IMG/VR virus record: IMGVR_UViG_2531839454_000020
Source: a virus
Taxonomy: Duplodnaviria > Heunggongvirae > Uroviricota > Caudoviricetes
Reading direction: 5' to 3' (one strand)
Length of the DNA stretch: 34,734 nt
Positions 6,684 to 20,181 of the stretch are shown in pieces; position 1 is the stretch's first letter, and the number at the start of each line of letters is the position of its first letter. Under the pieces are notes generated by a model that saw nothing but the letters and a program-made list of their open reading frames with translations, ran no database searches and was not told where the DNA came from. The translations under genes and the position numbers were made by a program.

Positions 6684-8591
6684 ATGAAACTAATTTCTAA
6701 TAAGGCCAAATTAAAAAAGATTCTCAGAAATGCAGCCAAATATATTACGCCACCGCCTAAACTCCTTCCATCGGAATGGTGCGAAGCTAATATGGTGCTG
6801 GTAGATGGTCCTCAAGCTGGGGATAAAGTTAAATTGCTGTCATTCCAGAAAGGTATGATTGATGCTCCTTTCCTTGAGAACAAGAAAAAGTATGTTCTGA
6901 TGACCAGTGCGCAGATCGGAAAGACTACCATCCTGAACGGCATCCTGTTTAACCAGATGGCTAACGATCCATGCAATATGATTATCGGACAATCAACCGC
7001 TAAAGAAATGTCTCAATATCTCGCTGGTAAGATCCGACCGTCTATCGAAGCATGTGATGCATTAAAAGACGTGGTTACAGACAAGAATGATCGCAATGCG
7101 GTTAACAACAATAACCAACTCCAGCTAAAAACGAATCACTTCCTGTACATGGTATCGCTTACCAGTCCATCAACCCTGCGCGGTAAGACTGCAAAGGTCG
7201 GACTACTAGACGAAATCGATGCTGCTACAGCCTCAGAAGAAGGTGATCCGGTGGCACTGGCTGCTAACCGTTTAACTACCTTTGGCGATGAAGGCCGATT
7301 AGTCGTATCCAGTACCCCGACCAGTAAGCTCGGAAGCATTAACCAGCAATGGTTATCAAGCGATATGCGTATGTTTTTTGTTCCGTGTCCTCATTGCGGG
7401 GAACACCAGGTGATCGAGTGGGAAAACGTTCAATTTGAATGGCGTAACATCGATGGTAAGAACTTACCCGATCCTGATACCGCTCGTTATATTTGCCCCC
7501 ACTGTAAGAACGCATGGACAGAAGGGGAACGAATCAGGGCAGTAGCGCAAGGCGAGTGGAGAGCAACCCGTGAAAGTGAAGTAGCAGGATTCTGGATTAG
7601 CCGTCTGTATTCACCTTTCAGCACGATCCGCGCTTGTGTGGTTGATTTTAGTCATGCGTGGCAATCCTTTGATTTACAATCATTTTATAACACCGTGTTA
7701 GGCAAGGTATACGATGATCAGGACACGGCAGTAGAAGCAAATGAACTGGAACAACTCAAAACAGATGTTTCTATCGAGAATATCCCTGATGACGTGATTT
7801 TCTTGTGCTCAGGAATTGACCAGCAATTGGATCGCGCAGAATCTACCATCTTAGGTGTAGCGAAAGATAAGGTTTACATTCTGGATCACCGTAGCTTTTA
7901 CGATCATAACTGTGAACGATACGAATCACCTGTATGGGATCGTCTGGTTAACTTCAAGAAAACCAAATTCTATAACGTTAATGGTGAACGTGTGCCAATG
8001 CTCGCCAGCTTCCTCGATACATCAAACGGTCGATTCACTCAAGCCGGATACCGTATTTGTGGTAAGTGGAAGAACCTACACGCTATTAAAGGTAGTTCAT
8101 CTGGTAATGCTCCAGTGATTCCGGTTAAACCTACCCGCACAGGTGGTCATGAATTGCTTATGCTGGGCGTTAACGTTGGTAAATCCGCTGTTCGTGAAAT
8201 GCTGGTTAGAAACCTGAAAGATAATCCTCATATTGGCTTAGAAATATCAGAAACCGTTCCTGATGATTATCTCGATCAGCTTTTGAGTGAATCCATCAAG
8301 CGTACTACTACTGGTGTTCGTTGGGTGAAAAATCCAGGTAGTACCCGAAACGAGGCTCTCGACTGTCTGGTTTATAGCTATGCTGCTTCTCGCTACGTCC
8401 TTTCAAAAATGTCATGGGATAAACTCATTGCAATGAAAGACAGCTTAAACAGCGTTAAAGAAGAACCCGTAAAAGCTCCTGAATCGCAATCTGACGAGCA
8501 AATCGAAGAAACTAAGCCAATCACACGACCGCAACGTCAAAACATCGCCAGACGCCCAAATAGAGGCCGTAGCTGGGTAACATCGTTCTAA
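6684..8591 (+). CDS. terminase large subunit (GpA-like), 635 aa
   Basis: First gene of the + structural block; Walker-A-like TSAQIGKTT; size and position typical of a large terminase; SD GAGGGT. Confidence 0.8.
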
Positions 8592-8597
8592 TAACTC

Positions 8598-8615
8598 GCC
8601 GTCCTTCGGGGCGGC
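8598..8615 (+). other. CUUCGG-type hairpin after the terminase gene (weak terminator)
   Basis: gccgtcc-ttcg-gggcggc; only a short T run follows. Confidence 0.35.
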
Positions 8616-8663
8616 TTACTCCTAAATATTGTTAATCCAATAACAATCAAATAAGGGGTAATT

Positions 8664-9161
8664 ATGAGTTTAGAACTAATTCCCTTAGTAATTCGTAAAG
8701 GCGAAAAAATCACGCTGGCGAATGAAGAGGGTGTAACAATTCAGGTAGGAAATAATAATAAAGGTATCATTTATCAGGTTGATGATACTCCGGCTAATCA
8801 CGAGATTAAAACCTTAGATTTTGCCGAAGGTAAATATACCATCGTAATAACTTTGGAAGAAGAACTGATATCAATGCAGGAATTAACTGTTTTACCAGTA
8901 TTCGCCAAACAATCCAAAAAAGAATATCTGCGGGAAACTATCGCCTTAATCGAGCAAGTTATTTTCGCCCGTTTATCTGGGGACGAAGCCGCATTATCAG
9001 CAATGACAGTGAAAGGGAATACTTTCGCCTATGAGTCATTGGCTGTTCTCCAGACTCTAAAAGTCGATTATGAACGTCAACTGTCTAAATTAATTCAAGC
9101 CGAACGACGTAAACAGGGAATTAGCCCGATTAAAAATATCAAATTACGTCTTACGCGATAA
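8664..9161 (+). CDS. hypothetical head protein (165 aa), possibly gpW-like head-tail joining
   Basis: Sits between terminase and portal, the slot of lambda gpW; SD AAGGGGT. Assignment by position only. Confidence 0.35.
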   Translation: MSLELIPLVIRKGEKITLANEEGVTIQVGNNNKGIIYQVDDTPANHEIKTLDFAEGKYTIVITLEEELISMQELTVLPVFAKQSKKEYLRETIALIEQVIFARLSGDEAALSAMTVKGNTFAYESLAVLQTLKVDYERQLSKLIQAERRKQGISPIKNIKLRLTR

Positions 9162-9171
9162 GGGGGAAATC

Positions 9172-10683
9172 ATGTTTAATCTTTTTCGACGCAAAAAGGC
9201 GGTAGAAACTCCAGTTAAAACTAATCACCGCCAGCAACAACCAAAAATTTTCATCGATAAGCAAGTAGAAAAATTCCAGAAATCTCTGGCGACTCGTAGT
9301 TTAGGACTGGTTGGTGATCGTATTGATGGATCACTTCAACAAGACACCATTACAGGAACCTTCAATAAGGCTCTCAAATCGAATGGTAAGCGCCTTTATG
9401 ATCAGGGTCGTACTCTGGCCTTAAACACTTCCGTAGGCAGTCGCTACACGCAATACATCACCGATATGGTGGTAGGTACTGGCCTAGATCCGAAGCCGTC
9501 AGTTGTTAAACCAAATGGAAAACTTGATAGCGCACTGAATAAGCAGATCGAGAATGCTTTCTGGAAGTGGGCGCAGAATGCTAAACGCTTCTCTCGCAAT
9601 GGTCGTTTTAACTTCCGTGAATTGCTGGTAATGGCTGAACGTGAGCGCGTTATGGGTGGTGAGTGTTTCATCGTTTTAACTAAAGAAAACAATGAGTTAA
9701 ATGTTTCTATCCTGTCTGCTGATAAATGCGACTGGTCGCTAAACCGTGAAATAAGCAAAGAGCGTGCGATATATCAAGGTGTGGAGTATGACGTAGAGAC
9801 GATGAAGCCCGTAGCATACTGGTTTCGTAAAATCAACCTACTGACTCAGACCTACACTGGTGATAACTATCGCGTCGATGCTTCGCAAGTATGCCATTAT
9901 TATCAACCACTTGCGGCTGAATCCCTGCGTGGTGTGACTGACTTCCTGCCAGTGATTAAGGATATCGCACATCAAGACGCATTCCGCGAAACTGCGATCG
10001 TCCAGAAACGTATTGCGGCTAGTTCTATGGGCTTTATCGAACGTCCGAAAGATTCTGGTGACGATTTTGATACTGGTGAAGAGGATGAACAATATCAAGC
10101 GCCGGAAGTAGTACAGGATTTTGCACCTGGTACTATTCAGGAATTACCGGAAGGGGCAACGATCAAGAGCATCCAGGCGACGCAAAGCGGTGATGATTTC
10201 AAATCCTTTAACGATGCGATGTATGGTAGCGTCGCGATGGGCTTAGGCGTGTTTAAACAGGGCTTGACTGGTGACACTAGCCAAATAAATTACAGCGCCA
10301 GTAGATTCGGTGATTTAATGCAACGACACCGCGTTAAAGCACTGCAAAACAAATTGATTGAAACAGTGGTATTGCCAATTTTCGAAGCATATCTACGCCA
10401 TTATTCCGCGCGTGGTATTGTTCCGATTCGTATTACTGCAATTCCGCATATTATCGATAACACTACTATTATTCGTCCTCGTTTTGAATCCGTCGATCCA
10501 TTTAAAGACGTAAGCGCCGAGATTGCTTTAATTGATAACGGACTTAAATCACGTACTGCCGTTATTCTTGAACGTGGTGATGATCCTGAAAAAGTATTCT
10601 CAGAGATTCAAGCCGAAAAGAGCGCACTAAATATTATCGTTAATGGCGAGGGTGAAGAAAAAAATTCCCCAGCCGATCCCTAA
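9172..10683 (+). CDS. portal protein (503 aa)
   Basis: Size and position directly upstream of the protease/capsid gene; SD AAGGGGGA. Confidence 0.75.
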   Translation: MFNLFRRKKAVETPVKTNHRQQQPKIFIDKQVEKFQKSLATRSLGLVGDRIDGSLQQDTITGTFNKALKSNGKRLYDQGRTLALNTSVGSRYTQYITDMVVGTGLDPKPSVVKPNGKLDSALNKQIENAFWKWAQNAKRFSRNGRFNFRELLVMAERERVMGGECFIVLTKENNELNVSILSADKCDWSLNREISKERAIYQGVEYDVETMKPVAYWFRKINLLTQTYTGDNYRVDASQVCHYYQPLAAESLRGVTDFLPVIKDIAHQDAFRETAIVQKRIAASSMGFIERPKDSGDDFDTGEEDEQYQAPEVVQDFAPGTIQELPEGATIKSIQATQSGDDFKSFNDAMYGSVAMGLGVFKQGLTGDTSQINYSASRFGDLMQRHRVKALQNKLIETVVLPIFEAYLRHYSARGIVPIRITAIPHIIDNTTIIRPRFESVDPFKDVSAEIALIDNGLKSRTAVILERGDDPEKVFSEIQAEKSALNIIVNGEGEEKNSPADP

Positions 10684-10728
10684 TAACCAACGGGGGCGCA
10701 ATGTCCCCAATTAATTAAAGGTGATTAA

Positions 10729-12729
10729 ATGCTTAAATTTCGCCGCGATCTTAACGGTTACGGTGGAGTTATTAACGAAGGGCATAACGATCAATACGAA
10801 TTTGAAATTGCTTTCTCCAGTGAACAGCCGTATCAGCGCCAATTCTGGGATGAGCAAAATCAAGAGATGGGGGTACTAGATGAAATTCTGGTACATACAC
10901 CGGAAGCGGTTGATCTGTCTCGTCTGAATAATAACGCTCCATTGCTGTTCAATCATAATTTCGATAATCATTTAGGTGTAGTCTGCGACGCTCGAATCGA
11001 TGCGGATAACGTAGGTCGTGCTCTGGTTAAATTCTCTAAGCATGGCACTTTGGCTAATGATATTCGCAATAAAGTCATTGAAGGTACGATGGAAAAAATT
11101 TCTGTCGGCTATGACATTAAAGAATATCACATCGATTACGCCAAAGGGCAATTGATTGTTACTAAGTGGGCGCCCTATGAACTCTCATTTGTCACCGTTC
11201 CTGCTGACGATACGGTCGGTTTAAATCGCTCTCTAAATACTATCACAGTTAATTTGGAGGCTAAACGCGATATGACTAAAGAACAAATTGAAGAAATCAA
11301 AGAAGAACAAGAATCCGCTCAGGTTGAAGAAACTCCGGTAGAAGAAATTAAAGAATCGGAAGTTGAAGAAACTCAAGAGCGCCAAGTTGAAGAGAATAAA
11401 GAAGATGAAAATCTCGAAGACGGAAAAGACGCTGAACATCCTGAAAGTGTTGATGATGATAGTTCAACTGTTCGGGAAGAAGAAATAAAAGAAGAACGTG
11501 AAGCTGCTCCGGTTGAAGAAGAAAAAATCGAAGAAGTGGCTGAACGTTCCGAAGAAGACGAATTAGAAATTCGCGAAATTGCACGCGAACTAAATATTGA
11601 TGACGAAGAATTGAAACGCGCATTGGCAATTAAAGACATGACGCCGGAAGCATTCCGCACTAAGGCACTAAATAATCTCGTCAATGCTCAACGTAATAAC
11701 GAACAAATTAAGGACTCTAAAATGGAAAAAACTTTTGACCTGAACAACGTAATTCGCTCTCTGGTAGATGGTGCTGCTCTGGGTGCTAACGAAGCTGAAT
11801 ATTCCTCTATGGCTGCTGGTGCTGCGATGCAGCGTGGTCGTGCTGCTCGTGGGGGCTCTGTATTCGTTCCGGCTGCTGCTCTGCGTGCTGCTGCTGATGG
11901 TAACACCAAAACTACTCTGACCGCTGTAACTGACGAAAAACTGATGACTGAATCCTACATCGAAATGCTGATGCCGGAATCTGTTCTGGGTCGTCTGGGT
12001 GTGACTGTTTACAGTGGCTTGAACTCCCCGACCGCTATTCCAAAAATGACCGCTTCCAGCGTTGACGCTTTCGGCTTCGTTGATGAAAACGGTGCTGCAC
12101 CGGAAAGCAAAGCTGAATTTGCGAACGTGAAACTGTCTCCGAAAACTTTTGCTGGTGGCAACCCGATCAGCCGTCAGTCGCTGAAAACCGTTCCGGGCAT
12201 CGCTACCCTGATCACTGATCACATTAACAAAGCTGTTCGTATCAAACTGGAACAACTGATTCTGTCTGATAAAGAAAATGCTCGTGGTCCGGCTGGTCTG
12301 GTTAAGCAACTGGTAGACGCTAGCCGCGTTACCAAGAAAGCTGCTTTCTCTTATAAAGACTTCCTGAAAGAAATTGCAGCACTGACCGACGCTGGCGTTC
12401 CTGCTCAGGCGATCAAGTTTGCAATGAGCGGTGCAACTGCTGCTGAACTGGAATCTACCCTGAAAGATAACGGCGTTTCCGGTTATATCATCGAAAACGG
12501 CAAACTGGCTGGTTACGAAGTAGTTACTTCTGGCGTTATCCCGGCAGACCACATCGTTCTGGGTGACTTCTCCGGTATTACTATCGGTGAGTGGGGAGGT
12601 CTGGAACTCGACATGGATCTAACTACATATAGGGATCGTGGTGCGGTAGTGCCTCGTATCTTTGTAGATTTGGACTACGTTGTAGCACAGCCGGAAGCCC
12701 TGAAAGTTCTTCACATCTCCGCTGAATGA
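10729..12729 (+). CDS. prohead protease - scaffold-like acidic linker - major capsid protein fusion (666 aa)
   Basis: N-terminal ~190 aa protease-like region, then an E/K-rich segment (EQIEEIKEEQESAQVEETPVEEIKESEVEE...), then a ~350-aa HK97-like capsid region. Antisense minus-strand ORFs here are artefacts. Confidence 0.7.
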   Translation: MLKFRRDLNGYGGVINEGHNDQYEFEIAFSSEQPYQRQFWDEQNQEMGVLDEILVHTPEAVDLSRLNNNAPLLFNHNFDNHLGVVCDARIDADNVGRALVKFSKHGTLANDIRNKVIEGTMEKISVGYDIKEYHIDYAKGQLIVTKWAPYELSFVTVPADDTVGLNRSLNTITVNLEAKRDMTKEQIEEIKEEQESAQVEETPVEEIKESEVEETQERQVEENKEDENLEDGKDAEHPESVDDDSSTVREEEIKEEREAAPVEEEKIEEVAERSEEDELEIREIARELNIDDEELKRALAIKDMTPEAFRTKALNNLVNAQRNNEQIKDSKMEKTFDLNNVIRSLVDGAALGANEAEYSSMAAGAAMQRGRAARGGSVFVPAAALRAAADGNTKTTLTAVTDEKLMTESYIEMLMPESVLGRLGVTVYSGLNSPTAIPKMTASSVDAFGFVDENGAAPESKAEFANVKLSPKTFAGGNPISRQSLKTVPGIATLITDHINKAVRIKLEQLILSDKENARGPAGLVKQLVDASRVTKKAAFSYKDFLKEIAALTDAGVPAQAIKFAMSGATAAELESTLKDNGVSGYIIENGKLAGYEVVTSGVIPADHIVLGDFSGITIGEWGGLELDMDLTTYRDRGAVVPRIFVDLDYVVAQPEALKVLHISAE

Positions 12730-12866
12730 ACTCCTGTAGAACCTTCTGAACCTTCCCCCGATTTGGGGGAAGAAAATCTGATTCCATCTCAGGAAGAAGA
12801 AGTTCAAGAGGTTACGGCGAAAGCCACAGTTAAAAAAGAACGTAAGACTAAAGCAAAATAATAATT

Positions 12867-12895
12867 AGCCCTGCCTTAATGGTGGGGCTTTTTTG
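12867..12895 (+). terminator. intrinsic terminator downstream of the capsid gene
   Basis: agccctgcc/ggtggggct stem followed by tttttt; lies after the 44-codon in-frame extension, not directly after the capsid stop. Confidence 0.6.
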
Positions 12896-12925
12896 TATGT
12901 AAATACTCCATAAAGGGGGGTAACT

Positions 12926-13216
12926 ATGTTCAAATTATCAGAATCACAATTATCAAGAATGTTCCGAAGTGCTCCTGTATTTTCGGTGGAAGGTGGTAAA
13001 TCAATTCGTGCTTATCATGAAATTACTACTACCGACGAACAAGGGGTAATGACAGAAACAGAATTTCTATTCTGTCGTGAGGGAGACTTAAAGCAGGGTG
13101 ATATTGTCATTGTAGAAAATCAGCGTTTCAAAGTTCAATATATTAAGCGCAATGGTGATAATACTTGTGATTGCTTTATCACTTTAGCAGGGGGTACACA
13201 TGCTCGCTACCGTTAA
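12926..13216 (+). CDS. head-tail joining/neck protein (96 aa), hypothetical
   Basis: SD AAGGGGGG; position between capsid and tail genes. Confidence 0.4.
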   Translation: MFKLSESQLSRMFRSAPVFSVEGGKSIRAYHEITTTDEQGVMTETEFLFCREGDLKQGDIVIVENQRFKVQYIKRNGDNTCDCFITLAGGTHARYR

Positions 13217-13622
13217 TAATATGCCGAGACTGAAAATCAAACGCGCCTTGCAAGATATTATCGAACAAGATTTAGGTCTGGCTTTAAACGTAGAACAAAC
13301 TCAGCAAGGTTTTAGTAATGACGTGGTTTGTTGGATTACTGGCATGAATGAGACTTACACTAGGGTCCGTGGCGGTAATGCAATGCAAGCTGAGTGTGTT
13401 ATCGAAATGCAATTATATTCCCAAATTCATGAAACCAAAATCCATGAGGGTATTTGCCAGATAATCCAGATTCAGCCGGATAACCCACGTTTTAAAGATA
13501 TGGGATTCTCTATTTCAGATATCACTCCAGTAGCCTCTAATACCGATTATGACGATGATTCTAGTGATGGGGGTATCGTTGGGACACTTAGCCTTAAATT
13601 TTCTTATCTAGCGCGTTTTTAA
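13200..13622 (+). CDS. head-tail joining or tail completion protein (140 aa), hypothetical
   Basis: Overlaps previous gene by 17 nt (coupled); SD GGGGGT. Confidence 0.4.
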   Translation: MLATVNNMPRLKIKRALQDIIEQDLGLALNVEQTQQGFSNDVVCWITGMNETYTRVRGGNAMQAECVIEMQLYSQIHETKIHEGICQIIQIQPDNPRFKDMGFSISDITPVASNTDYDDDSSDGGIVGTLSLKFSYLARF

Positions 13623-13631
13623 GGGGTAATA

Positions 13632-14465
13632 ATGAATATTACACAAGATAACTTAGACATTTTCACGGGGTCGCATGTTGAAGTCTCCGTGTCTACTATG
13701 GTGGATAACCAGCCGGACTTTTTCGATCCTGCATTTAGTCCTATCGAGAACATCGCAGCATTTCCGACGATAACCGAATCCACAGAGATCCAGACGTTAG
13801 AAGAATATGACCATGATGTTACTGGTAAGTTGGCTGGCTATCGTAAACTTGAATCAACAACACTCACAGTAAACCGTGTTCTGGATGATGAACATCAAGC
13901 AATGTTGATGAAAGCGGTAGAGGATAAAACCCCTTTACGCTTCCGTATGTTCTATGTTGTGAACTCTGGCTATAGTGCTGCTAACACAGGATACTACGTC
14001 ATTTTTGATGCATACGTCACATCACACAAAACCCGTGGTAGCGATAACAAAGTTACTACCATCGAATTTAAATTAGATCCTGATGGTGGGATTCTCGACC
14101 GTGGTATTGCCACCGAAGGCCGGATCTTACGTCAAGGTGATTTTGGTTTGGGTGCTGGTGTAAATCCATTCACGGGTCCGATTGATAGCGAAGCATTAGC
14201 CGGAAACCGTTTCGTAACCTATCAGGGATCGAGCGCATCTAACCCATTTAGTGCTGATACTTCACTAATTCACGTTCAACCTAATGAAGATGGAGGATGG
14301 CAATTAACTTGCACCGCTTCCGGCGCACCACGTTTACGAGTTCGCACAGTCCAGAAAGACGGTAATTCTGGATGGGTGAAAGTGTATTCCACAGAAGAAA
14401 AACCGACACCAGCCGAGATTGAAGCCGTTTCTATCCATGACCGGATCGATTTCGGGGAATACTGA
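13632..14465 (+). CDS. structural protein (277 aa) with C-terminal Ig-like region; tail tube- or decoration-like
   Basis: SD AAGGGGT; C-terminal LTCTASGAPRLRVRTVQKDGNSGWVKVYS suggests a Big_2/Ig-like fold as seen on some major tail or decoration proteins. Confidence 0.4.
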   Translation: MNITQDNLDIFTGSHVEVSVSTMVDNQPDFFDPAFSPIENIAAFPTITESTEIQTLEEYDHDVTGKLAGYRKLESTTLTVNRVLDDEHQAMLMKAVEDKTPLRFRMFYVVNSGYSAANTGYYVIFDAYVTSHKTRGSDNKVTTIEFKLDPDGGILDRGIATEGRILRQGDFGLGAGVNPFTGPIDSEALAGNRFVTYQGSSASNPFSADTSLIHVQPNEDGGWQLTCTASGAPRLRVRTVQKDGNSGWVKVYSTEEKPTPAEIEAVSIHDRIDFGEY

Positions 14466-14491
14466 TTGCTTCTCTAAATAAAACATGACGC

Positions 14492-14523
14492 GGGGAGGTT
14501 AACGCCTCCCTTATTCCTGTTTT
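14492..14523 (+). terminator. intrinsic terminator upstream of the fibre gene
   Basis: gggagg-ttaacg-cctccc followed by T-rich ttattcctgtttt. Confidence 0.5.
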
Positions 14524-14538
14524 ATATGAGGTGATTAG

Positions 14539-17500
14539 ATGCAATCAATCCAATTTAAACGAACTAATGTTTCTGGCAAAAAACCAACGCCGGAACAATT
14601 ACAGGTCGGTGAGGTAGCAATCAACCTTAAAGACCATGTTATTTTTACCAAAGACCGAGATCATGAAGTAGTTCAAATCTCTGTTTCTCCTGAAACTCAC
14701 GCGGCACTAGAATCTAAAGTTGATGCTAATAAAAAAGAACTGGATAGCACAATTGTAGTAAACGACCGCAATATTCACGCTAAAGTAGATGAAATTAAAC
14801 AAACTACTGATGCAACAATCGCAGCAAATCACGCAGAAATTAACAATAAAGTTGATGTAATTAAACGCGAAACCGACGCGACAATCGAGGCCAATAAAAA
14901 TAAAGCTGCTTCCGATCTTGCTGGTGTTAAAGCTGAATTGTCGGATACCATCAACGCTAATAAAAATGCGGCTGCTGTAGCAACTCAGGAACTGGACACC
15001 CGCATCAATAAAAAAGTTGATGATATTAAATCCCGTACCGATGCAACCATCGTAAGCAATCACAAAGCAATCAATGACAAAGTTGATTTGATTAAGGCAG
15101 AAACTGACCGCACTATCGCAGCAAATCACGCCTATGCGGAAAATCAGTTAACTGACACCTACAATAACCTTACTGGTGTGATTGCAGCCAATAAGCAAGA
15201 GGCAGCGGATAACGTCGCAGCATTAACCCGTGATGTTGAAGCCAAAAATACAGCAATTCATAGCAAAGTTGACAATAACAAGTCTTACACTGATTCTGAA
15301 TTGGCACGCTTAGAAAGCCGTATTGATGCAGCCGATGGATCAAGTGATGGTAAGTACATCAAAAAGCACGTAAACACTTGCACTGATGGCTATTTGCTGT
15401 CTAAGACCGCAAACCCTTTTGATGATCCGAGTGCTCTTAATCTTGATTACTTTGGTGCATTTCGCATGAATGACCTGGCGGGTCATATTGCAATGATCTT
15501 GCATGTTCCGCACCCATCCGGCGTTAATCATGCTCGTGGTTTTGAGTTCACTTATGGGTCTAATCCACATGCTACTGTAAGAACATACGGCTATGATGAA
15601 TTGGGACATTTGGCATATTCTCACCGCATGTATCATGAAGGTGATAAACCTACTCCGGCTGAAATTGGCGCATATTCGAAAGCAGAAATTGACCGACTGT
15701 TCCAGAAGACGCTTAATTTTGGTATCGAGGGTGGTTGGTTTAAACTAGGCACTTTGACAATGCCACAACAACACGGTCGCACGGCTAAGATCCGTTTGGT
15801 AGGTGGTAACGGTTATAACGTAGGACATAATGGAAAAGCCAATATTATCGAATTGGTGATTCGATGCGGCAACAATAGCCCGAAAGGTGTTGTATTCAAT
15901 GCGTATTATACTATTTGGCATTATGAACAACATTTTTGCGCTATTCCAACCGATGGCGACAATTACGATCTTTACGCTTACTACGGTGCACATACAGGAT
16001 TTGTTTTAGCAGAATATCAAGTTTCTTCCGGTGGTGTTTCTTTAAACCTGTTGGATACTCCTGAATATCTGGGTGGTGAAAAACCTGTTGCAGATGAAAT
16101 TTTTGATGCTCTTAACATTTCATCGTTCAATAACTTTAGCAACCGTGGGACGTTAAATTTTGCTGGCAATCATCAAGGCCAATATGATATTGAGCATTTA
16201 AACGAACAACCGACAAATGCTAAAAAGATGTTGCGTCGCTTCCGTAGTTGTGCACCAGCTACAATCTGGCATGAGACAGTTGATGATAACGCATATCGTC
16301 TTGCTACTGGATACGAAGATACAAATCAGGAATTATTGCTGACAGCAACATCCGGGTTACATGTCAAGAAATTAACATTGGATGGCGGTGTTACTGGAAA
16401 TTCTGGTATTGATATTCGTCGAGGACCAAACGAATCAAGTCATTTTAATTTCATGGATTATCGCACTGGACAAGATGTTCGTAATGGTTGGTTTGGTTTT
16501 GGTGATGGAACAACCAAAGATTTTATTTGGTGGAACGATAACGGTCAAAACTCTATAAACCTGATTGAAGATGGTGAATTGCATATTACTGGCGGTAAAG
16601 GCCAGAAAATTGTAATGAATAGCGAAGTTGCATTATCTGAAAATGCTCGTTTGGCTGTCAAAGGTGGTAACTATGGCTTAATTTTTAGAAATGATGGCGT
16701 TGGCTTCCATATTCTTACCACAGATCTCGGTGATTCATTTGGACCGTGGAATACTCGTAGACCATTCAGCTATAATTTTGCTGACGGTGGATTATATTTA
16801 GGTGGCACTGAAACTGCTCGTTGTTTGCATCTTGGAATTGATGGTAGTACCCGTCTTGAAGACAACCTTTTCTTTAAAGCTGGTTCTCGTCAATCTATGG
16901 ACTATATGGAACTCGTCCATTGGGGGGCAAGCAATACAGGTCGAAATAACGTTTTAAGTCTTCGTGACTCAAAAGGATTTTTCGCAGAATTTGAACGATT
17001 GGGTGATAATACCATTAAAAACACCTTCTTCGGGAAACTTAAAGTTAATCGTGGTTCTGACGCAATCGTCATGAATGCCGAAACGGGTGATTCGTCTATA
17101 TATTTGCTGGGTACTTGTGCTGATAATAACAACTGGTATATCGGTAAAGGTGGTGCTGATAATGGATTAGCGTTCTATAGCTATGCTACTAATGCTGCTA
17201 TCAATATTACAAACGCGGGTGATATCGCGCTAAGTCCAAAAGGTGTCGAAATGACTCATGTCAATAACGTTCGATTCTATGTTCATGGTGAACGTTGGAC
17301 TGCTAGCCAATCTGGAGGTTGGGGCGATCAATGGGGATTAGAAGCGCCGATATTTGTCGATCATGGTTATGTAGGACCAGATAGCTATTATCCAATTATT
17401 AAAGGAAGAAGTTTAATCACCAATCAAGGGTATACAACTGCCGTCGATTTTGGTATGCGTCGTGTTCCTCAAAATTGGGGGCAAGCAATTATTCGCGTTG

Positions 17501-17949
17501 GATCTGCGGAGGCATCGCCAGCGGCTGGTCATCCTCAAGCGGTGTTTGAATTTCATCATGATGGTACTTTCTATTCTCCTGGTAATGGTAACTTTAACGA
17601 TGTTTATATTCGTTCCGATGGTCGTCTGAAAATTAATGTTGAAGATTACGAAGAAAATGCGGTGGATAAGGTAAATAAACTCAAAGTTAAAACCTACGAT
17701 AAAGTTAAATCTCTTAATGACCGAGAAGTTATAGGTCATGAGATTGGTATTATCGCACAGGATTTACAAGAGGTATTACCGGAAGCTGTTAAAACCGCAA
17801 AAATTGGTGGTCTTGATAACCCAGAAGAAATTTTAACAATTTCAAACTCCGCAGTGAACGCGCTTTTAATTAAAGCGGTCCAAGAAATGAGCGAAGAAAA
17901 TAAACTTCTTCGTGAACGTCTTGCTGCAATTGAAGCTAAATTAGGGTAA
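14539..17949 (+). CDS. L-shaped-type tail fibre with C-terminal intramolecular chaperone (peptidase S74-like), 1136 aa
   Basis: N-terminal FKRTNVSGKKPTPEQLQVGEVAINLKD; four KVD-x-IK-xx-TD-x-TI-xx-NH repeats; C-terminal ~110 aa beginning S|DGRLKINVEDYE and ending in a coiled coil, as in auto-cleaving chaperone domains of T5-type fibres and endosialidases (recalled). Confidence 0.75.
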   Translation: MQSIQFKRTNVSGKKPTPEQLQVGEVAINLKDHVIFTKDRDHEVVQISVSPETHAALESKVDANKKELDSTIVVNDRNIHAKVDEIKQTTDATIAANHAEINNKVDVIKRETDATIEANKNKAASDLAGVKAELSDTINANKNAAAVATQELDTRINKKVDDIKSRTDATIVSNHKAINDKVDLIKAETDRTIAANHAYAENQLTDTYNNLTGVIAANKQEAADNVAALTRDVEAKNTAIHSKVDNNKSYTDSELARLESRIDAADGSSDGKYIKKHVNTCTDGYLLSKTANPFDDPSALNLDYFGAFRMNDLAGHIAMILHVPHPSGVNHARGFEFTYGSNPHATVRTYGYDELGHLAYSHRMYHEGDKPTPAEIGAYSKAEIDRLFQKTLNFGIEGGWFKLGTLTMPQQHGRTAKIRLVGGNGYNVGHNGKANIIELVIRCGNNSPKGVVFNAYYTIWHYEQHFCAIPTDGDNYDLYAYYGAHTGFVLAEYQVSSGGVSLNLLDTPEYLGGEKPVADEIFDALNISSFNNFSNRGTLNFAGNHQGQYDIEHLNEQPTNAKKMLRRFRSCAPATIWHETVDDNAYRLATGYEDTNQELLLTATSGLHVKKLTLDGGVTGNSGIDIRRGPNESSHFNFMDYRTGQDVRNGWFGFGDGTTKDFIWWNDNGQNSINLIEDGELHITGGKGQKIVMNSEVALSENARLAVKGGNYGLIFRNDGVGFHILTTDLGDSFGPWNTRRPFSYNFADGGLYLGGTETARCLHLGIDGSTRLEDNLFFKAGSRQSMDYMELVHWGASNTGRNNVLSLRDSKGFFAEFERLGDNTIKNTFFGKLKVNRGSDAIVMNAETGDSSIYLLGTCADNNNWYIGKGGADNGLAFYSYATNAAINITNAGDIALSPKGVEMTHVNNVRFYVHGERWTASQSGGWGDQWGLEAPIFVDHGYVGPDSYYPIIKGRSLITNQGYTTAVDFGMRRVPQNWGQAIIRVGSAEASPAAGHPQAVFEFHHDGTFYSPGNGNFNDVYIRSDGRLKINVEDYEENAVDKVNKLKVKTYDKVKSLNDREVIGHEIGIIAQDLQEVLPEAVKTAKIGGLDNPEEILTISNSAVNALLIKAVQEMSEENKLLRERLAAIEAKLG
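17617..17946 (+). other. predicted auto-cleaved intramolecular chaperone domain of the fibre
   Basis: Begins at the Asp of ...YIRS|DGRLK...; 110 aa to the stop. Confidence 0.55.
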
Positions 17950-17987
17950 TTGGAAAGCGGGGAGAAATCTCCGCTAAGGATTCTTAT

Positions 17988-18284
17988 ATGGGATATTGGG
18001 TAAGTAGTGAAATTAATACTAAAATCGATGCTTTAAAATGGCATGTATTTGATATTCCTAACGGCTATGGTACTGCTCGTGCTGGTGTCGCTGTAATGCG
18101 TCATAATGCTGGTGGTGGGTGGTCTGATGCACATATTAACGTAGATGGTTTGACCGTTGCTCGTCGTCGTGGTGGGACCAATTGGGGATCTACTATAAAT
18201 TCGTTTGTTCCTGCTGGCTGCACCGTCTCCTTTGGTTTAGGGGGTGAAGGTGGTGTTGAATATTTTAAATTCATGGAGTTTTAA
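17988..18284 (+). CDS. small Gly-rich protein, paralog 1 of 3 (98 aa), function unknown
   Basis: MGYWVSS...FDIPNGYG...CTVSFGLGGEGGVEYFKF; AAGGA SD. Confidence 0.6.
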   Translation: MGYWVSSEINTKIDALKWHVFDIPNGYGTARAGVAVMRHNAGGGWSDAHINVDGLTVARRRGGTNWGSTINSFVPAGCTVSFGLGGEGGVEYFKFMEF

Positions 18285-18286
18285 TT

Positions 18287-18592
18287 ATGGCTGGATGGAT
18301 AAATCAAAGAATGTCAAACGCTATTAGTATTTGGGCTAATGGTGGATATTTTGATATCCCCAACGGCTGGGTTACTGATTCATGCGGAATTGTTTTTGCT
18401 CATATGGAAGCCATTAACGGTGCTGGTGATCTTGATTCTGAATTGGCTGTAAATGGATTGATTGAATCAGGTCATCATGCTGGTGATGCTGGGAGTTGGG
18501 GCGCTAGTTCTTTAGTTGGCGCTGGTGCTACCGTTAGCTTTACATTGGGTAAAGGTAGTTTGCATTATTTTAAATTCAGGAGAATGCACTAA
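18287..18592 (+). CDS. small Gly-rich protein, paralog 2 of 3 (101 aa), function unknown
   Basis: MAGWINQ...FDIPNGWV...ATVSFTLGKGSLHYFKF; starts 3 nt after paralog 1; SD GGAG. Confidence 0.6.
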   Translation: MAGWINQRMSNAISIWANGGYFDIPNGWVTDSCGIVFAHMEAINGAGDLDSELAVNGLIESGHHAGDAGSWGASSLVGAGATVSFTLGKGSLHYFKFRRMH

Positions 18593-18894
18593 TGGCATTT
18601 TGGGTAGATGGCGCTTTGGGGAATAGGGCGGGTAAAGCAAATCAAGGATGGTTTGATATTCCTAACGGTTGGACAGCCGACGCTTTCGGGACTATTTCAT
18701 TCTGTGCTCATTCTTCCGGTGGTGGCGGTGGTGACTCTGAATTGCTTATTCATGGTTTGTGTGTTTCTGGAAGCCATAAGGGTCATGATTGGGGACAGAT
18801 TCATTCTTGTATTGCACCGCAAGGGGCGGTAATTACCGTTAGCACAAATAGGGGGATCGCTCATCTTCGTTATAGACGTTTGAGCAACCGCTAA
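18592..18894 (+). CDS. small Gly-rich protein, paralog 3 of 3 (100 aa), function unknown
   Basis: MAFWVDG...FDIPNGWT...AVITVSTNRGIAHLRY; start overlaps the stop of paralog 2 (TAATG). Confidence 0.6.
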   Translation: MAFWVDGALGNRAGKANQGWFDIPNGWTADAFGTISFCAHSSGGGGGDSELLIHGLCVSGSHKGHDWGQIHSCIAPQGAVITVSTNRGIAHLRYRRLSNR

Positions 18895-18948
18895 ATAAAT
18901 AGAATTACGGGTATGTGCCCTATTGTTTAAAATAGAAGGAAAAGAATA

Positions 18949-19419
18949 ATGACTACTAAATTTGATATTTTTTCTGGTGGCCTCGTTGGTCTGTTTCTGC
19001 ATGAAGAAGTAACTAACACCGATCTTGACAGTGAAAGCTATCTGGAAATTCCAGAATGTGCGGCTTTCCCGGAAACTGGTGTAGAACGTTCTACTGTCGA
19101 TGTTCCTAACTTCGGTGGTCCGTATAACCGTAAGCTGGTTGGTCGTATGTCTGTACCGGATATCGAACTTTCGATCAACTACATGCCGGGTAACGAAGTA
19201 CACGAAAAACTGATTAAAGCAACCGAAGACGGTAAGCGCGTACAGATTAAAATTGCTTACTACATCGACGCTACGAAAAAATCTGGTGTACATATCGCTT
19301 ATAACGGCTTCCTGTCTAAAACTACCATGACTGGTGGTGAGGATGCTGTAGTAGGCCGTACCTTCACCTTTGTAGTAGATGGTGCTCCGGTTAAACAAGC
19401 TGTTTTCCAGAAACTCTAA
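18949..19419 (+). CDS. major tail (tube) protein, putative (156 aa)
   Basis: Directly upstream of the G/T chaperone pair and tape measure; strong SD GAAGGAAAAG; followed by a strong terminator. Confidence 0.5.
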   Translation: MTTKFDIFSGGLVGLFLHEEVTNTDLDSESYLEIPECAAFPETGVERSTVDVPNFGGPYNRKLVGRMSVPDIELSINYMPGNEVHEKLIKATEDGKRVQIKIAYYIDATKKSGVHIAYNGFLSKTTMTGGEDAVVGRTFTFVVDGAPVKQAVFQKL

Positions 19420-19427
19420 TATTATCT

Positions 19428-19452
19428 AGCCATCCTTCGGGGTGGCTTTTTT
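19428..19452 (+). terminator. intrinsic terminator after the major tail gene
   Basis: agccatcc-ttcg-gggtggct followed by tttttt. Confidence 0.65.
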
Positions 19453-19501: not shown

Positions 19502-19810
19502 ATGAATATTAATGAAATGCTGAAAGCTCTTTCTCCGAAACGCGAATCTCTGACCATCGGTGGATTCACTTTCTATGCTCGCCCTATGTCAGTAAAAGAA
19601 TTTAACGAACATGTTTTCAATACCGATAAAGATGACCGTGATGAACGTTCTATTCTTCGTTGTATTGAAGATGAAGACGGTAAACCAGTATTTGAATCTA
19701 TGGAACAAGTTAAGGCACTGTATACTAACGTCCGCAGTGAATTAATCGGTTTGGTTGCTCAAGCGTCATTGATGCAAGATCCGGCAGTAATTGAAAACGA
19801 GGTAAAGTAA
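19502..19810 (+). CDS. tail assembly chaperone (lambda G-like), 102 aa
   Basis: Position before the tape measure; SD AAGAGGAAA. Confidence 0.55.
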   Translation: MNINEMLKALSPKRESLTIGGFTFYARPMSVKEFNEHVFNTDKDDRDERSILRCIEDEDGKPVFESMEQVKALYTNVRSELIGLVAQASLMQDPAVIENEVK

Positions 19811-19839
19811 ACCCGCTTCTGAATTTCTATTTCCGGCAA

Positions 19840-20181
19840 ATGATGCGATCGGGGCTTAGTAAAGATGAAATGGATAATATGCCAATCACTCTATTTTGGA
19901 AATTATACATTTTCGACACCTACTTAGAACCACAAAGCCCCGCGTTTCATGATATGCAGAATGCGATGTTGCAATATTCCATGTATATGACGTCGCAAGG
20001 AATGACACGCGAAACTGCAAAGAAACTCAAGCCTAGCCAATTCCAATTAATTAGAGAAGAAAAACTCTTTAAAACTAAAGAAGAACTGGAAGAAATTGCA
20101 CGCAAGAAAGAAGAAGAACGTAAAGCGGCAATGCTGAACATGTTTGATCCATCTTTGCTTGAGAAACTCAGAAGCGGTTAA
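19840..20181 (+). CDS. tail assembly chaperone T-like ORF, probably expressed as a G-T fusion by -1 frameshift
   Basis: ORF is in the -1 frame relative to G and opens at 19795, before the G stop (19808); no SD before its first ATG; A-AAG shifty site directly before the G stop. Confidence 0.45.
   Translation: MMRSGLSKDEMDNMPITLFWKLYIFDTYLEPQSPAFHDMQNAMLQYSMYMTSQGMTRETAKKLKPSQFQLIREEKLFKTKEELEEIARKKEEERKAAMLNMFDPSLLEKLRSG

What the first reader, a model, noticed from the sequence alone, without database searches (positions are those of the whole stretch)
17988..18894. Three tandem, translationally coupled paralogous ~100-aa Gly-rich genes directly after the tail fibre gene
Three consecutive ORFs (98, 101, 100 aa) share a clear scaffold: Trp near residue 4, an invariant FDIPNG(W/Y) motif, a Gly-rich centre, a D-x-EL...GL segment and a C-terminal V(S/T)F-x-LG...YFKF, while the regions between are strongly diverged. 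They are packed with 3-nt and overlapping (TAATG) junctions between the fibre gene and the major tail gene. None has a signal peptide, TM segment or a motif I can assign to a known family. A diversified tandem array beside the receptor-binding fibre suggests fibre-tip accessory or adhesin modules, alternative host-range determinants, or a structural decoration.
Basis: seen in the sequence. Interest (0 to 1): 0.75.

Follow-up and report, generated by a model that had tools for sequence, protein, structure and literature searches.

The report
Three-gene tail-fibre tip replacing gp38
Three small related genes always found together after a self-cleaving phage tail-fibre gene probably encode a three-part cap for the fibre tip, taking the place of the known single-protein adhesin gp38, and so would define a new host-range cassette shared by E. 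coli prophages and T4-like phages.

Summary
Three coupled paralogous genes, A 17988-18284, B 18287-18592 and C 18592-18894, follow a 1136-aa fibre that ends in a Peptidase_S74 self-cleaving chaperone domain. Pfam, PHROGs, NCBIfam, PADLOC and PDB sequences give no hit. An exhaustive scan of 1.84 billion proteins finds only 19 representatives.

The array is not variable. All 14 intact loci examined carry exactly A-B-C in that order after an S74 fibre. A fifteenth, truncated contig shows A, B and the start of C.

AlphaFold models of A and B (pLDDT about 86) show an N-terminal helix plus a compact jelly-roll whose best matches are C1q/TNF globular domains.

The fibre's mature tip is 95% identical to tips of T4-like phages that bind the gp38 adhesin. 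Three Krischviruses carry the trio in the exact slot where sister phages carry gp38. G37-3 has no gp38 anywhere in its genome. KFS-EC, whose trio is broken, has gp38.

Best reading (about 0.55): after the chaperone domain is released, A, B and C cap the trimeric tip. Each would supply one Trp-tipped helix, as gp38's three helices do, and together they would form a C1q-like heterotrimeric receptor-binding knob.

Virion presence, stoichiometry and receptor binding are inferred, not shown. I class it as a new variant of a known kind, interest 0.7.

The parts
14539..17949 (+). Tail fibre gene (1136 aa), T-even gp37-like distal half with a C-terminal self-cleaving intramolecular chaperone
   Evidence: Pfam Gp34_trimer E 1.6e-12, Peptidase_S74 E 5e-14, gp37_trimer weak. 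PHROG 1699 'long tail fiber distal subunit' E 2e-128.
17164..17613 (+). Last 150 residues of the predicted mature fibre tip, ending ...GNGNFNDVYIR (residue 1025); proposed docking site for the trio
   Evidence: 95% aa identical to the Krischvirus MIZ4 gp37 tip and 86% to the Tequatrovirus DalCa gp37 tip. Both of those are followed by a gp38 adhesin.
17614..17946 (+). Intramolecular chaperone domain (residues 1026-1136); predicted autocleavage before S1026 (NDVYIR|SDGRLK)
   Evidence: Peptidase_S74 match at residues 1026-1085. Aligns to S16 gp37 (PDB 6F45_A) at its ...RDLNVS SDRRIKKD region. The cleavage position is inferred by homology.
17956..17975 (+). Intergenic hairpin (8-bp stem, GNRA-like 4-nt loop) between the fibre stop and the Shine-Dalgarno of gene A
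   Evidence: RNA MFE -13.3 kcal/mol, z -2.9 against shuffles. No U-run, so not called as a terminator. The homologous spot in G2248 is annotated as a putative terminator. Function not established.
17988..18284 (+). Gene A (98 aa): W4, predicted N-terminal helix 5-12, 7-strand jelly-roll, C-terminus ...EYFKFMEF
   Evidence: AF2 pLDDT 85.9. A-type orthologs form one clade across all loci.
18287..18592 (+). Gene B (101 aa): W4, predicted N-terminal helix 2-13, jelly-roll, C-terminus ...HYFKFRRMH
18592..18894 (+). Gene C (100 aa): W4, Gly5 loop, C-terminus ...HLRYRRLSNR; start overlaps the stop of B (TAATG)
   Evidence: BLASTP to B E 9e-15.
18949..19419 (+). Tail tube protein (context; marks the downstream edge of the fibre+trio module)
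   Evidence: PHROG 158 major tail protein E 3.7e-20; Pfam Phage_TTP_12. Terminator-like site at 19428-19447.

Best explanation
A, B and C are the three subunits of a detachable cap, the receptor-binding tip, of the upstream fibre. They are a functional replacement for the monomeric gp38 adhesin of T2/S16-type fibres.

Proposed steps:
1. The fibre trimerises with the help of its C-terminal S74 chaperone domain. That domain then cuts itself off after ...NDVYIR1025. This is inferred from homology to T2/S16 gp37.
2. Cleavage exposes the same tip surface that binds gp38 in sister phages.
3. One copy each of A, B and C docks there. Each contributes one N-terminal helix with an exposed Trp (W4). This mimics the three Trp-tipped helices of gp38, which plug into three symmetry-equivalent pockets of gp37.
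4. The three jelly-roll domains pack around the fibre axis into a pseudo-threefold knob, like the A/B/C head of complement C1q.
5. The variable Gly-rich loops, at the end of the sandwich opposite both termini, contact the host receptor.

Translational coupling would give the 1:1:1 stoichiometry. The comparative genomics and the fold are shown. Docking, heterotrimer formation, virion presence and receptor binding are inferred.
For: (a) Slot. In Krischviruses G37-3, G2248 and UPWr_E1 the trio lies between gp37 and a 79-aa ORF plus holin t. In sister Krischvirus MIZ4 that same slot holds gp38.

(b) Same tips. The window's mature tip is 95% identical to MIZ4's and 86% to DalCa's, both followed by gp38. 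The G37-3 and L004 tips, which carry the trio, are 93-95% identical to RB32's tip, which is followed by gp38.

(c) Mutual exclusion. RB49-type Krischviruses keep gp38 at a distant locus (Phi1 44989-45765). That locus is empty in G37-3, G2248 and UPWr_E1. tblastn with four gp38s finds nothing in 167.4 of the 167.8 kb of G37-3, and the positive control works. KFS-EC's trio is destroyed by an A/C deletion-fusion plus frameshift, and KFS-EC retains gp38 (H100).

(d) Fixed set. All 14 intact loci have exactly A-B-C after an S74 fibre, including the divergent metagenomic set L018; the 2550-nt contig L016 shows A, B and the start of C before it ends. The orthogroups are ancient.

(e) Structure. Models of A and B show an N-terminal helix plus a jelly-roll, pLDDT about 86. 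The best matches are obligately trimeric C1q/TNF domains and viral C1q-like or tail-fibre proteins.

(f) Known docking mode. S16 gp38 binds gp37 through three helices, each tipped by a Trp inserted every 120 degrees (PMC6851490). W4 is invariant in A, B and C of every enterobacterial locus examined.

(g) Distribution of variation. The window and L004 versions of A have identical residues 1-27 and identical last 8 residues. Their differences lie at residues 28-90 (sequences).
Against: There is no direct evidence that the proteins are in virions or bind the fibre.

Sequence similarity to gp38 is not significant. hhalign gives probability 0.3%. The Trp-helix similarity test gives p about 0.05 against a small background.

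W4 is not conserved in the A and C proteins of the divergent metagenomic sets, where the residue is L, Y or Q.

The trio occurs behind three different pre-cleavage tip types, 20-31% identical over the last 150 aa. Any docking must therefore rely on a small conserved surface, such as ...ND(V/I)YIR.
Confidence: 0.55

Rival explanations
1. There are three alternative tips. Each paralog forms its own homotrimeric C1q-like knob (A3, B3 or C3) on a fibre, so one virion carries fibres with different specificities and has a broader host range.
For: C1q/TNF-like domains commonly form homotrimers (fold matches). The paralogs differ most in their loops. Every gene has its own Shine-Dalgarno sequence.
Against: Copy number and order are invariant: 14 of 14 intact loci are A-B-C, with no locus carrying 1, 2 or 4 copies and no lineage-specific duplication. 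The three orthogroups predate all the observed divergence. Interchangeable alternatives would be expected to be gained and lost independently.
Confidence: 0.15
2. The three proteins are non-structural assembly factors. They would help fold the fibre, release or recycle the cleaved S74 chaperone domain, or protect the tip. The bare processed tip would be the adhesin.
For: The trio co-transfers with the chaperone domain: window and G37-3 share 95-97% nt identity from about 17595 to 18910 while their tips differ. T4 gp38 is a precedent for a chaperone encoded at this position (PMC6851490).
Against: The fold resembles terminal knobs of fibres and C1q heads, not known fibre chaperones, and there is no Pfam or PHROG chaperone hit. 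Identical tips need gp38 as the adhesin in MIZ4, DalCa and RB32, so a bare tip in G37-3 would leave gp38-docking pockets exposed. Decay of the trio exactly where gp38 is present (KFS-EC) argues for functional equivalence with an adhesin.
Confidence: 0.12
3. The trio is a non-virion cargo linked to the fibre gene, such as superinfection exclusion or receptor masking, or another moron function.
For: Exclusion genes are often encoded next to receptor-binding genes; this is general knowledge (for example T5 llp, and cor of T1/phi80), not tested here. The trio is present in prophages.
Against: There is no signal peptide, lipobox or TM segment and no PADLOC hit. The genes are translationally coupled within the late tail operon and have no promoter of their own. 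They are retained in strictly lytic Krischviruses that lack gp38.
Confidence: 0.05

Closest known systems
gp38 tip adhesin of T2/T6/S16-type T-even phages (PDB 6F45; Dunne et al. 2018, summarised in PMC6851490)
   Same: Encoded directly after a gp37-type fibre that sheds a C-terminal chaperone domain. Occupies the same genomic slot. Paired with nearly identical fibre tips. Mutually exclusive with the trio in Krischvirus genomes. Conserved N-terminal part, variable Gly-rich distal part. Three Trp-tipped helices in total.
   Different: gp38 is one chain of about 260 aa with a three-helix bundle, a beta-helix and a polyglycine-II sandwich. Here there are three chains of about 100 aa, each with one helix and a jelly-roll. 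There is no detectable sequence homology. The symmetry mismatch of a monomer on a trimer would be replaced by a pseudo-threefold heterotrimer.
Globular head of complement C1q (heterotrimer of the A, B and C chains) and other gC1q/TNF-family trimers
   Same: Best structural matches for the predicted domain. Three paralogous chains at the end of a trimeric stalk. In that superfamily both termini lie at the stalk-proximal base and the ligand-binding loops at the apex. The strand order of the model implies the same polarity here.
   Different: The domain is about 80 residues against about 130, so it is a reduced jelly-roll. There is no Pfam C1q or TNF sequence match. The knob chains are not covalently continuous with the stalk. 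Trimerisation is untested.
C-terminal knob or head domains of phage and viral fibres (C1q-like and collagen-repeat tail-fibre proteins in BFVD)
   Same: Same fold class at the distal end of fibres (viral hits named Complement C1q-like protein, tail fiber protein, collagen triple helix repeat).
   Different: Those domains are homotrimeric and part of the fibre polypeptide. Here they are separate genes, in three paralogous versions, combined with a self-cleaving chaperone fibre.

Membership tests
gp38 adhesin (T2/S16 type) | Sequence homology to gp38 (attachment domain, GRM/HVS polyglycine sandwich) | tested here: not met
   hhalign of the family profile against DalCa gp38 gives probability 0.3%, E 0.21. 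tblastn with four gp38s against the window and the G37-3 genome finds nothing.
gp38 adhesin (T2/S16 type) | Encoded downstream of a gp37-type fibre with a self-cleaving S74 chaperone domain whose tip binds the adhesin | tested here: met
   same slot as gp38 in MIZ4, and tips 86-95% identical to gp38-partnered tips.
gp38 adhesin (T2/S16 type) | Three N-terminal helices, each tipped by an exposed Trp, that dock into three equivalent gp37 pockets | tested here: inconclusive
   Each of A, B and C has W4; a low-confidence N-terminal helix was predicted for the two chains modelled, A and B. That makes three Trp and, if C has the same helix, three helices in total, but on three chains. Sequence similarity to the gp38 helices has p about 0.05. 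Docking was not modelled.
gp38 adhesin (T2/S16 type) | Present at the fibre tip in virions and determines the receptor | not testable with these tools
   Needs virion MS, cryo-EM or genetics.
C1q/TNF superfamily | Jelly-roll beta-sandwich fold of gC1q/TNF type | tested here: met
C1q/TNF superfamily | Sequence-profile membership (Pfam C1q PF00386 or TNF PF00229) | tested here: not met
   No Pfam hit at E<=1 except an irrelevant PF25455 match at 0.051. No PDB sequence hit.
C1q/TNF superfamily | Trimeric assembly around a threefold axis | not testable with these tools
Trimerisation is inferred only from the fixed three-gene set.
Tail fibre assembly chaperones (Tfa / T4 gp38 / gp57A types) | Profile match to known chaperone families | tested here: not met
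   No Pfam, PHROG or NCBIfam match.
Superinfection-exclusion lipoproteins next to RBP genes (Llp/Cor type) | Signal peptide/lipobox or membrane segment | tested here: not met
   The N-termini are MGYW, MAGW and MAFW. The maximum 19-aa hydropathy is 0.9. No PADLOC hit.

The most novel reading that the evidence does not exclude
The trio is the first separately encoded, heterotrimeric receptor-binding knob of a phage fibre. Three ancient paralogs, each giving one Trp-tipped docking helix and one C1q/TNF-like jelly-roll, would assemble 1:1:1 on the chaperone-processed tip of a gp37-type fibre. This would be a second, structurally unrelated solution to the job done by monomeric gp38. It would be convergent with the A/B/C head of complement C1q. 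It moves as a cassette between temperate siphovirus prophages and lytic T4-like myoviruses.
Probability: 0.45. Interest if true: 0.85.

Novelty: new variant of a known kind. Interest (0 to 1): 0.7.

Why it matters
gp38 is the best-understood programmable host-range determinant of T-even phages, and receptor prediction and phage engineering are built on it. A second, unrelated tip module that fits the same fibre tips would explain how gp38-less Krischviruses such as G37-3, G2248 and UPWr_E1 recognise hosts. It would add a missing class to receptor-prediction models; the 2026 preprint read reports its likely erroneous predictions mostly in genomes lacking gp38. It would also give engineers a new swappable cassette with three independently variable chains.

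The near-identical DNA (95-99%) in E. coli prophage siphoviruses and in lytic myoviruses shows recent exchange of host-range modules across very different phage lifestyles and tail types. A heterotrimeric cap on a homotrimeric fibre would be an unusual structural solution and worth a cryo-EM study.

Tried and rejected
- Heterotrimer modelling. I concatenated A, B and C with linkers and built a paired alignment of 9 loci (A3).
- Homology to gp38. hhalign was not significant. A Trp-anchored segment score test against gp38's three helices gave p about 0.05 with only 74 background segments. I treat this as suggestive only.
- Net charge and pI complementarity between A, B and C across loci showed no consistent pattern.
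- Large proteins among the exhaustive-search hits (for example P0054, 1118 aa, 5 stretches) are repeat proteins, not fibre fusions, and were discarded.
- The weak PHROG hits of A to 'tail protein' families (E 0.008-0.05) and the PDB sequence hit to a cyanophage tailspike (E 0.74) are below significance.
- Per-column entropy by orthogroup was noisy because my automatic assignment of database sequences to B and C was imperfect. I used only the direct window-versus-L004 comparison.
- Literature searches for the phage names and for C1q-like or heterotrimeric fibre tips found no description of these genes.
- Rejected: the idea of a variable-copy diversified array.

Full report
**1. What is in the sequence**

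Three ORFs lie head to tail on the + strand: A at 17988-18284 (98 aa), B at 18287-18592 (101 aa) and C at 18592-18894 (100 aa). A and B are separated by 2 nt (TAA TT ATG). B and C overlap by one base (TAATG). Each gene has its own Shine-Dalgarno-like GGAG/AGGA.

They are true paralogs, with pairwise BLASTP E-values of 2e-12 (A/B), 9e-15 (B/C) and 6e-9 (A/C). They share W4, the F-D-I-P-N-G-(W/Y) motif, several glycines and a W-G pair.

None has a hydrophobic segment.

The upstream gene (14539-17949) is a 1136-aa fibre with Gp34_trimer and gp37_trimer matches and a C-terminal Peptidase_S74 intramolecular chaperone. The downstream gene (18949-19419) is a lambda-type tail tube protein.

An 8-bp hairpin at 17956-17975 (-13.3 kcal/mol, z -2.9) lies between the fibre stop and gene A.

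**2. The family is small, unannotated and always a trio**

Pfam, PHROGs, NCBIfam, PADLOC and PDB sequences give no significant match.

A word-indexed search of 5.8 billion proteins found 35 clusters, all 'hypothetical', from E. coli, Shigella and Salmonella. A filter-free HMM scan of 1.84 billion representatives found only 19 at E<=0.001.

The trio occurs in 24 of 5,426 complete E. coli genomes, always on the chromosome, and in 4 phages out of 50,697 phage records.

Every intact locus I could read carries exactly one A-type, one B-type and one C-type gene, in that order, directly after a fibre that ends in an S74 domain. These are the window, seven E. coli or unassigned contigs, four Salmonella prophages, three Krischviruses and the divergent metagenomic contigs. 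Two loci that looked like pairs simply had the third gene uncalled. The truncated contig L016 shows A, B and the start of C before it ends.

A-type proteins form one clade across all loci. Mean identity is 50% for the same position in different loci and 28% between positions within a locus. The triplication is therefore old and the set is kept intact. This is not a variable, diversifying array.

**3. Structure**

AlphaFold2 with the family alignment gave confident models for B (pLDDT 85.8) and A (85.9). Both show a lower-confidence N-terminal helix (B residues 2-13, A residues 5-12) that starts at W4, followed by a compact 7-strand sandwich.

Foldseek against the PDB independently puts gC1q domains in its top 28 places, with a best E of 7e-4 and TM 0.4-0.5.

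Foldseek against viral models returns 'Complement C1q-like protein', tail-fibre proteins and collagen-repeat proteins.

The resemblance is moderate. CBM and GOLD sandwiches also appear, and there is no sequence-profile match to C1q or TNF. I therefore call it C1q/TNF-like in fold, not a family member.

From the strand order, both termini sit at one end of the sandwich. The Gly-rich loops, at about residues 42-48, 66-69 and 90 of B, sit at the other end.

**4. The link to gp38**

Megablast showed that the fibre's C-terminal part and the trio are 95-97% identical in nucleotides to Krischvirus vB_EcoM_G37-3, about 80% to G2248 and about 78% to UPWr_E1. The fibre C-terminus plus gene A are 98.9% identical to KFS-EC. 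All four are T4-like myoviruses. The rest of the window has no phage match.

In these phages the trio lies between gp37 and a 79-aa ORF plus holin t. In sister Krischvirus MIZ4 that exact slot holds a 260-aa gp38 adhesin.

Established knowledge, taken from PMC9569957 and PMC6851490:
- Most T-even gp37 proteins carry a self-cleaving chaperone domain.
- After its removal one gp38 monomer caps the trimeric tip.
- gp38 docks by a bundle of three N-terminal helices.
- Each helix carries an exposed Trp at its apex, inserted every 120 degrees into equivalent hydrophobic pockets of gp37.

The tips are shared between the two systems. The last 150 residues of the window's mature fibre, ending NDVYIR|SD, are 95% identical to MIZ4 gp37 and 86% to DalCa gp37. 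Both of those are followed by gp38. The G37-3 and L004 tips, which carry the trio, are 93-95% identical to the RB32 gp37 tip, which is followed by gp38.

**5. A natural complementation pattern**

RB49-type Krischviruses keep gp38 at a distant locus, at Phi1 44989-45765, and have nothing between gp37 and the 79-aa ORF.

A 1-kb probe across that distant locus shows it is empty in 13 of 59 Krischvirus records, including G37-3, G2248 and UPWr_E1. It also shows that KFS-EC has gp38 there.

I fetched 167.4 of the 167.8 kb of G37-3 and found no gp38 homologue with four diverse gp38 queries. The Phi1 control scored E 3e-163.

KFS-EC is the one phage whose trio is broken. Gene A is fused to the middle of C by a deletion across the shared Gly run, followed by a frameshift, and B is gone.

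The pattern is: intact trio with no gp38, and broken trio with gp38, on tips that can take either partner. This is the strongest argument that the trio does gp38's job.

**6. Proposed mechanism**

Shown:
- the gene arrangement and the fixed A-B-C set;
- the fold class;
- tip identity with gp38-binding fibres;
- slot identity with gp38, and mutual exclusion with it.

Inferred:
- The S74 domain cuts after R1025.
- A, B and C each bind the exposed tip through the W4 helix, giving three Trp-tipped helices in total, as in gp38.
- The three jelly-rolls form a pseudo-threefold knob, like the C1q A/B/C head.
- The distal variable loops bind the receptor.

Two further observations are consistent with this. 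Between the two common E. coli variants of A, residues 1-27 and the last 8 residues are identical and the changes fall in residues 28-90. Tight coupling of the genes fits a 1:1:1 product.

Caveats:
- The similarity of the N-termini to gp38 helices is not statistically convincing.
- W4 is replaced by L, Y or Q in the A and C proteins of the divergent metagenomic sets. Phi1 gp38 also has Tyr at its third apex position.
- No multimer model could be made.

**7. Rivals**

Three alternative homotrimeric tips (0.15) is disfavoured by the invariant copy number and the ancient orthogroups.

Non-virion assembly factors (0.12) is favoured only by the co-transfer of the trio with the chaperone domain. It is disfavoured by the knob-like fold and by the gp38 exclusion pattern.

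Exclusion or moron cargo (0.05) is disfavoured by the lack of export signals, by the coupling within the late tail operon, and by retention in lytic gp38-less phages.

**8. Novelty**

I found no paper describing these genes. The kind is known: a separately encoded tip adhesin for chaperone-processed gp37-type fibres. The protein family, the fold and the three-subunit architecture are new. I therefore rate it a new variant of a known kind, with interest 0.7.

Noticed in passing
window 17000-18910 vs MK327941 (G37-3), MH560358 (KFS-EC): The fibre C-terminus and trio of this E. coli prophage-type siphovirus are 95-99% nt identical to lytic T4-like Krischviruses, while 8.5 kb of the head region tested (window 6000-14500) has no megablast match to any phage record. 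This indicates recent exchange of a host-range cassette between a temperate siphovirus and virulent myoviruses. Breakpoints: the tip and the chaperone-plus-trio segment recombine independently.
   Followed up: partly
L002 (KFS-EC) 4989-5480: The KFS-EC trio is degraded. A(1-88) is fused to the middle of C across the shared GGxGGDSEL region and then frameshifted, and B is deleted. The phage is viable and carries gp38 at the RB49-type locus.
   Followed up: yes
window 13632-14465 and 18949-19419: Two tail-tube-like genes flank the fibre+trio module. The first (277 aa) has a TTP-like N-terminal half (PHROG 158, E 4e-9) plus an extra C-terminal half containing a 'KPTPAEIEA' motif that is also present in the fibre (KPTPAEIGA). 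This is an unusual place for a side-fibre gene and may mark how the fibre is anchored on the tail.
   Followed up: no
window 17956-17975: A stable 8-bp hairpin lies between the fibre stop codon and gene A (-13.3 kcal/mol, z -2.9), without a U-run. The equivalent site in G2248 is annotated as a terminator. It might lower trio expression relative to the fibre, since a 1:3 ratio would be needed, but this is speculation.
   Followed up: partly
L027 (E. coli 14EC017) 4806-5918: In one E. coli chromosome an IS421 transposase is inserted between the fibre gene and an otherwise 100% identical trio.
   Followed up: no
L008, L013, L014 and P0027/P0028/P0036 (Salmonella B-type proteins): Salmonella B proteins carry an N-terminal extension of 10-30 residues ending ...ARIP(A/V)xG(H)W. 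Their docking Trp is therefore internal, and the motif resembles gp38's VGVPGW. The true start codons were not verified.
   Followed up: no
59 Krischvirus records: Krischviruses fall into at least three long-tail-fibre tip configurations: gp38 at a distant locus (RB49, Phi1, JSE...), gp38 directly after gp37 (MIZ4, and by report FL15/FL20), and the trio after gp37 (G37-3, G2248, UPWr_E1). 13 of 59 records have the distant locus empty.
   Followed up: partly
window 14700-15300 (fibre residues ~60-250): The N-terminal part of the fibre contains repeated ~30-aa segments (…NKKVD.IK..TDATI.AN…) that give spurious Apolipoprotein/Sds3 Pfam hits. It is probably a coiled or repeat shaft region.
   Followed up: no
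window 19502-20181: Two small ORFs (102 and 113 aa) lie between the tail tube gene and the 809-aa tape-measure gene, in the position of tail assembly chaperones G/GT. A frameshift site was not looked for.
   Followed up: no
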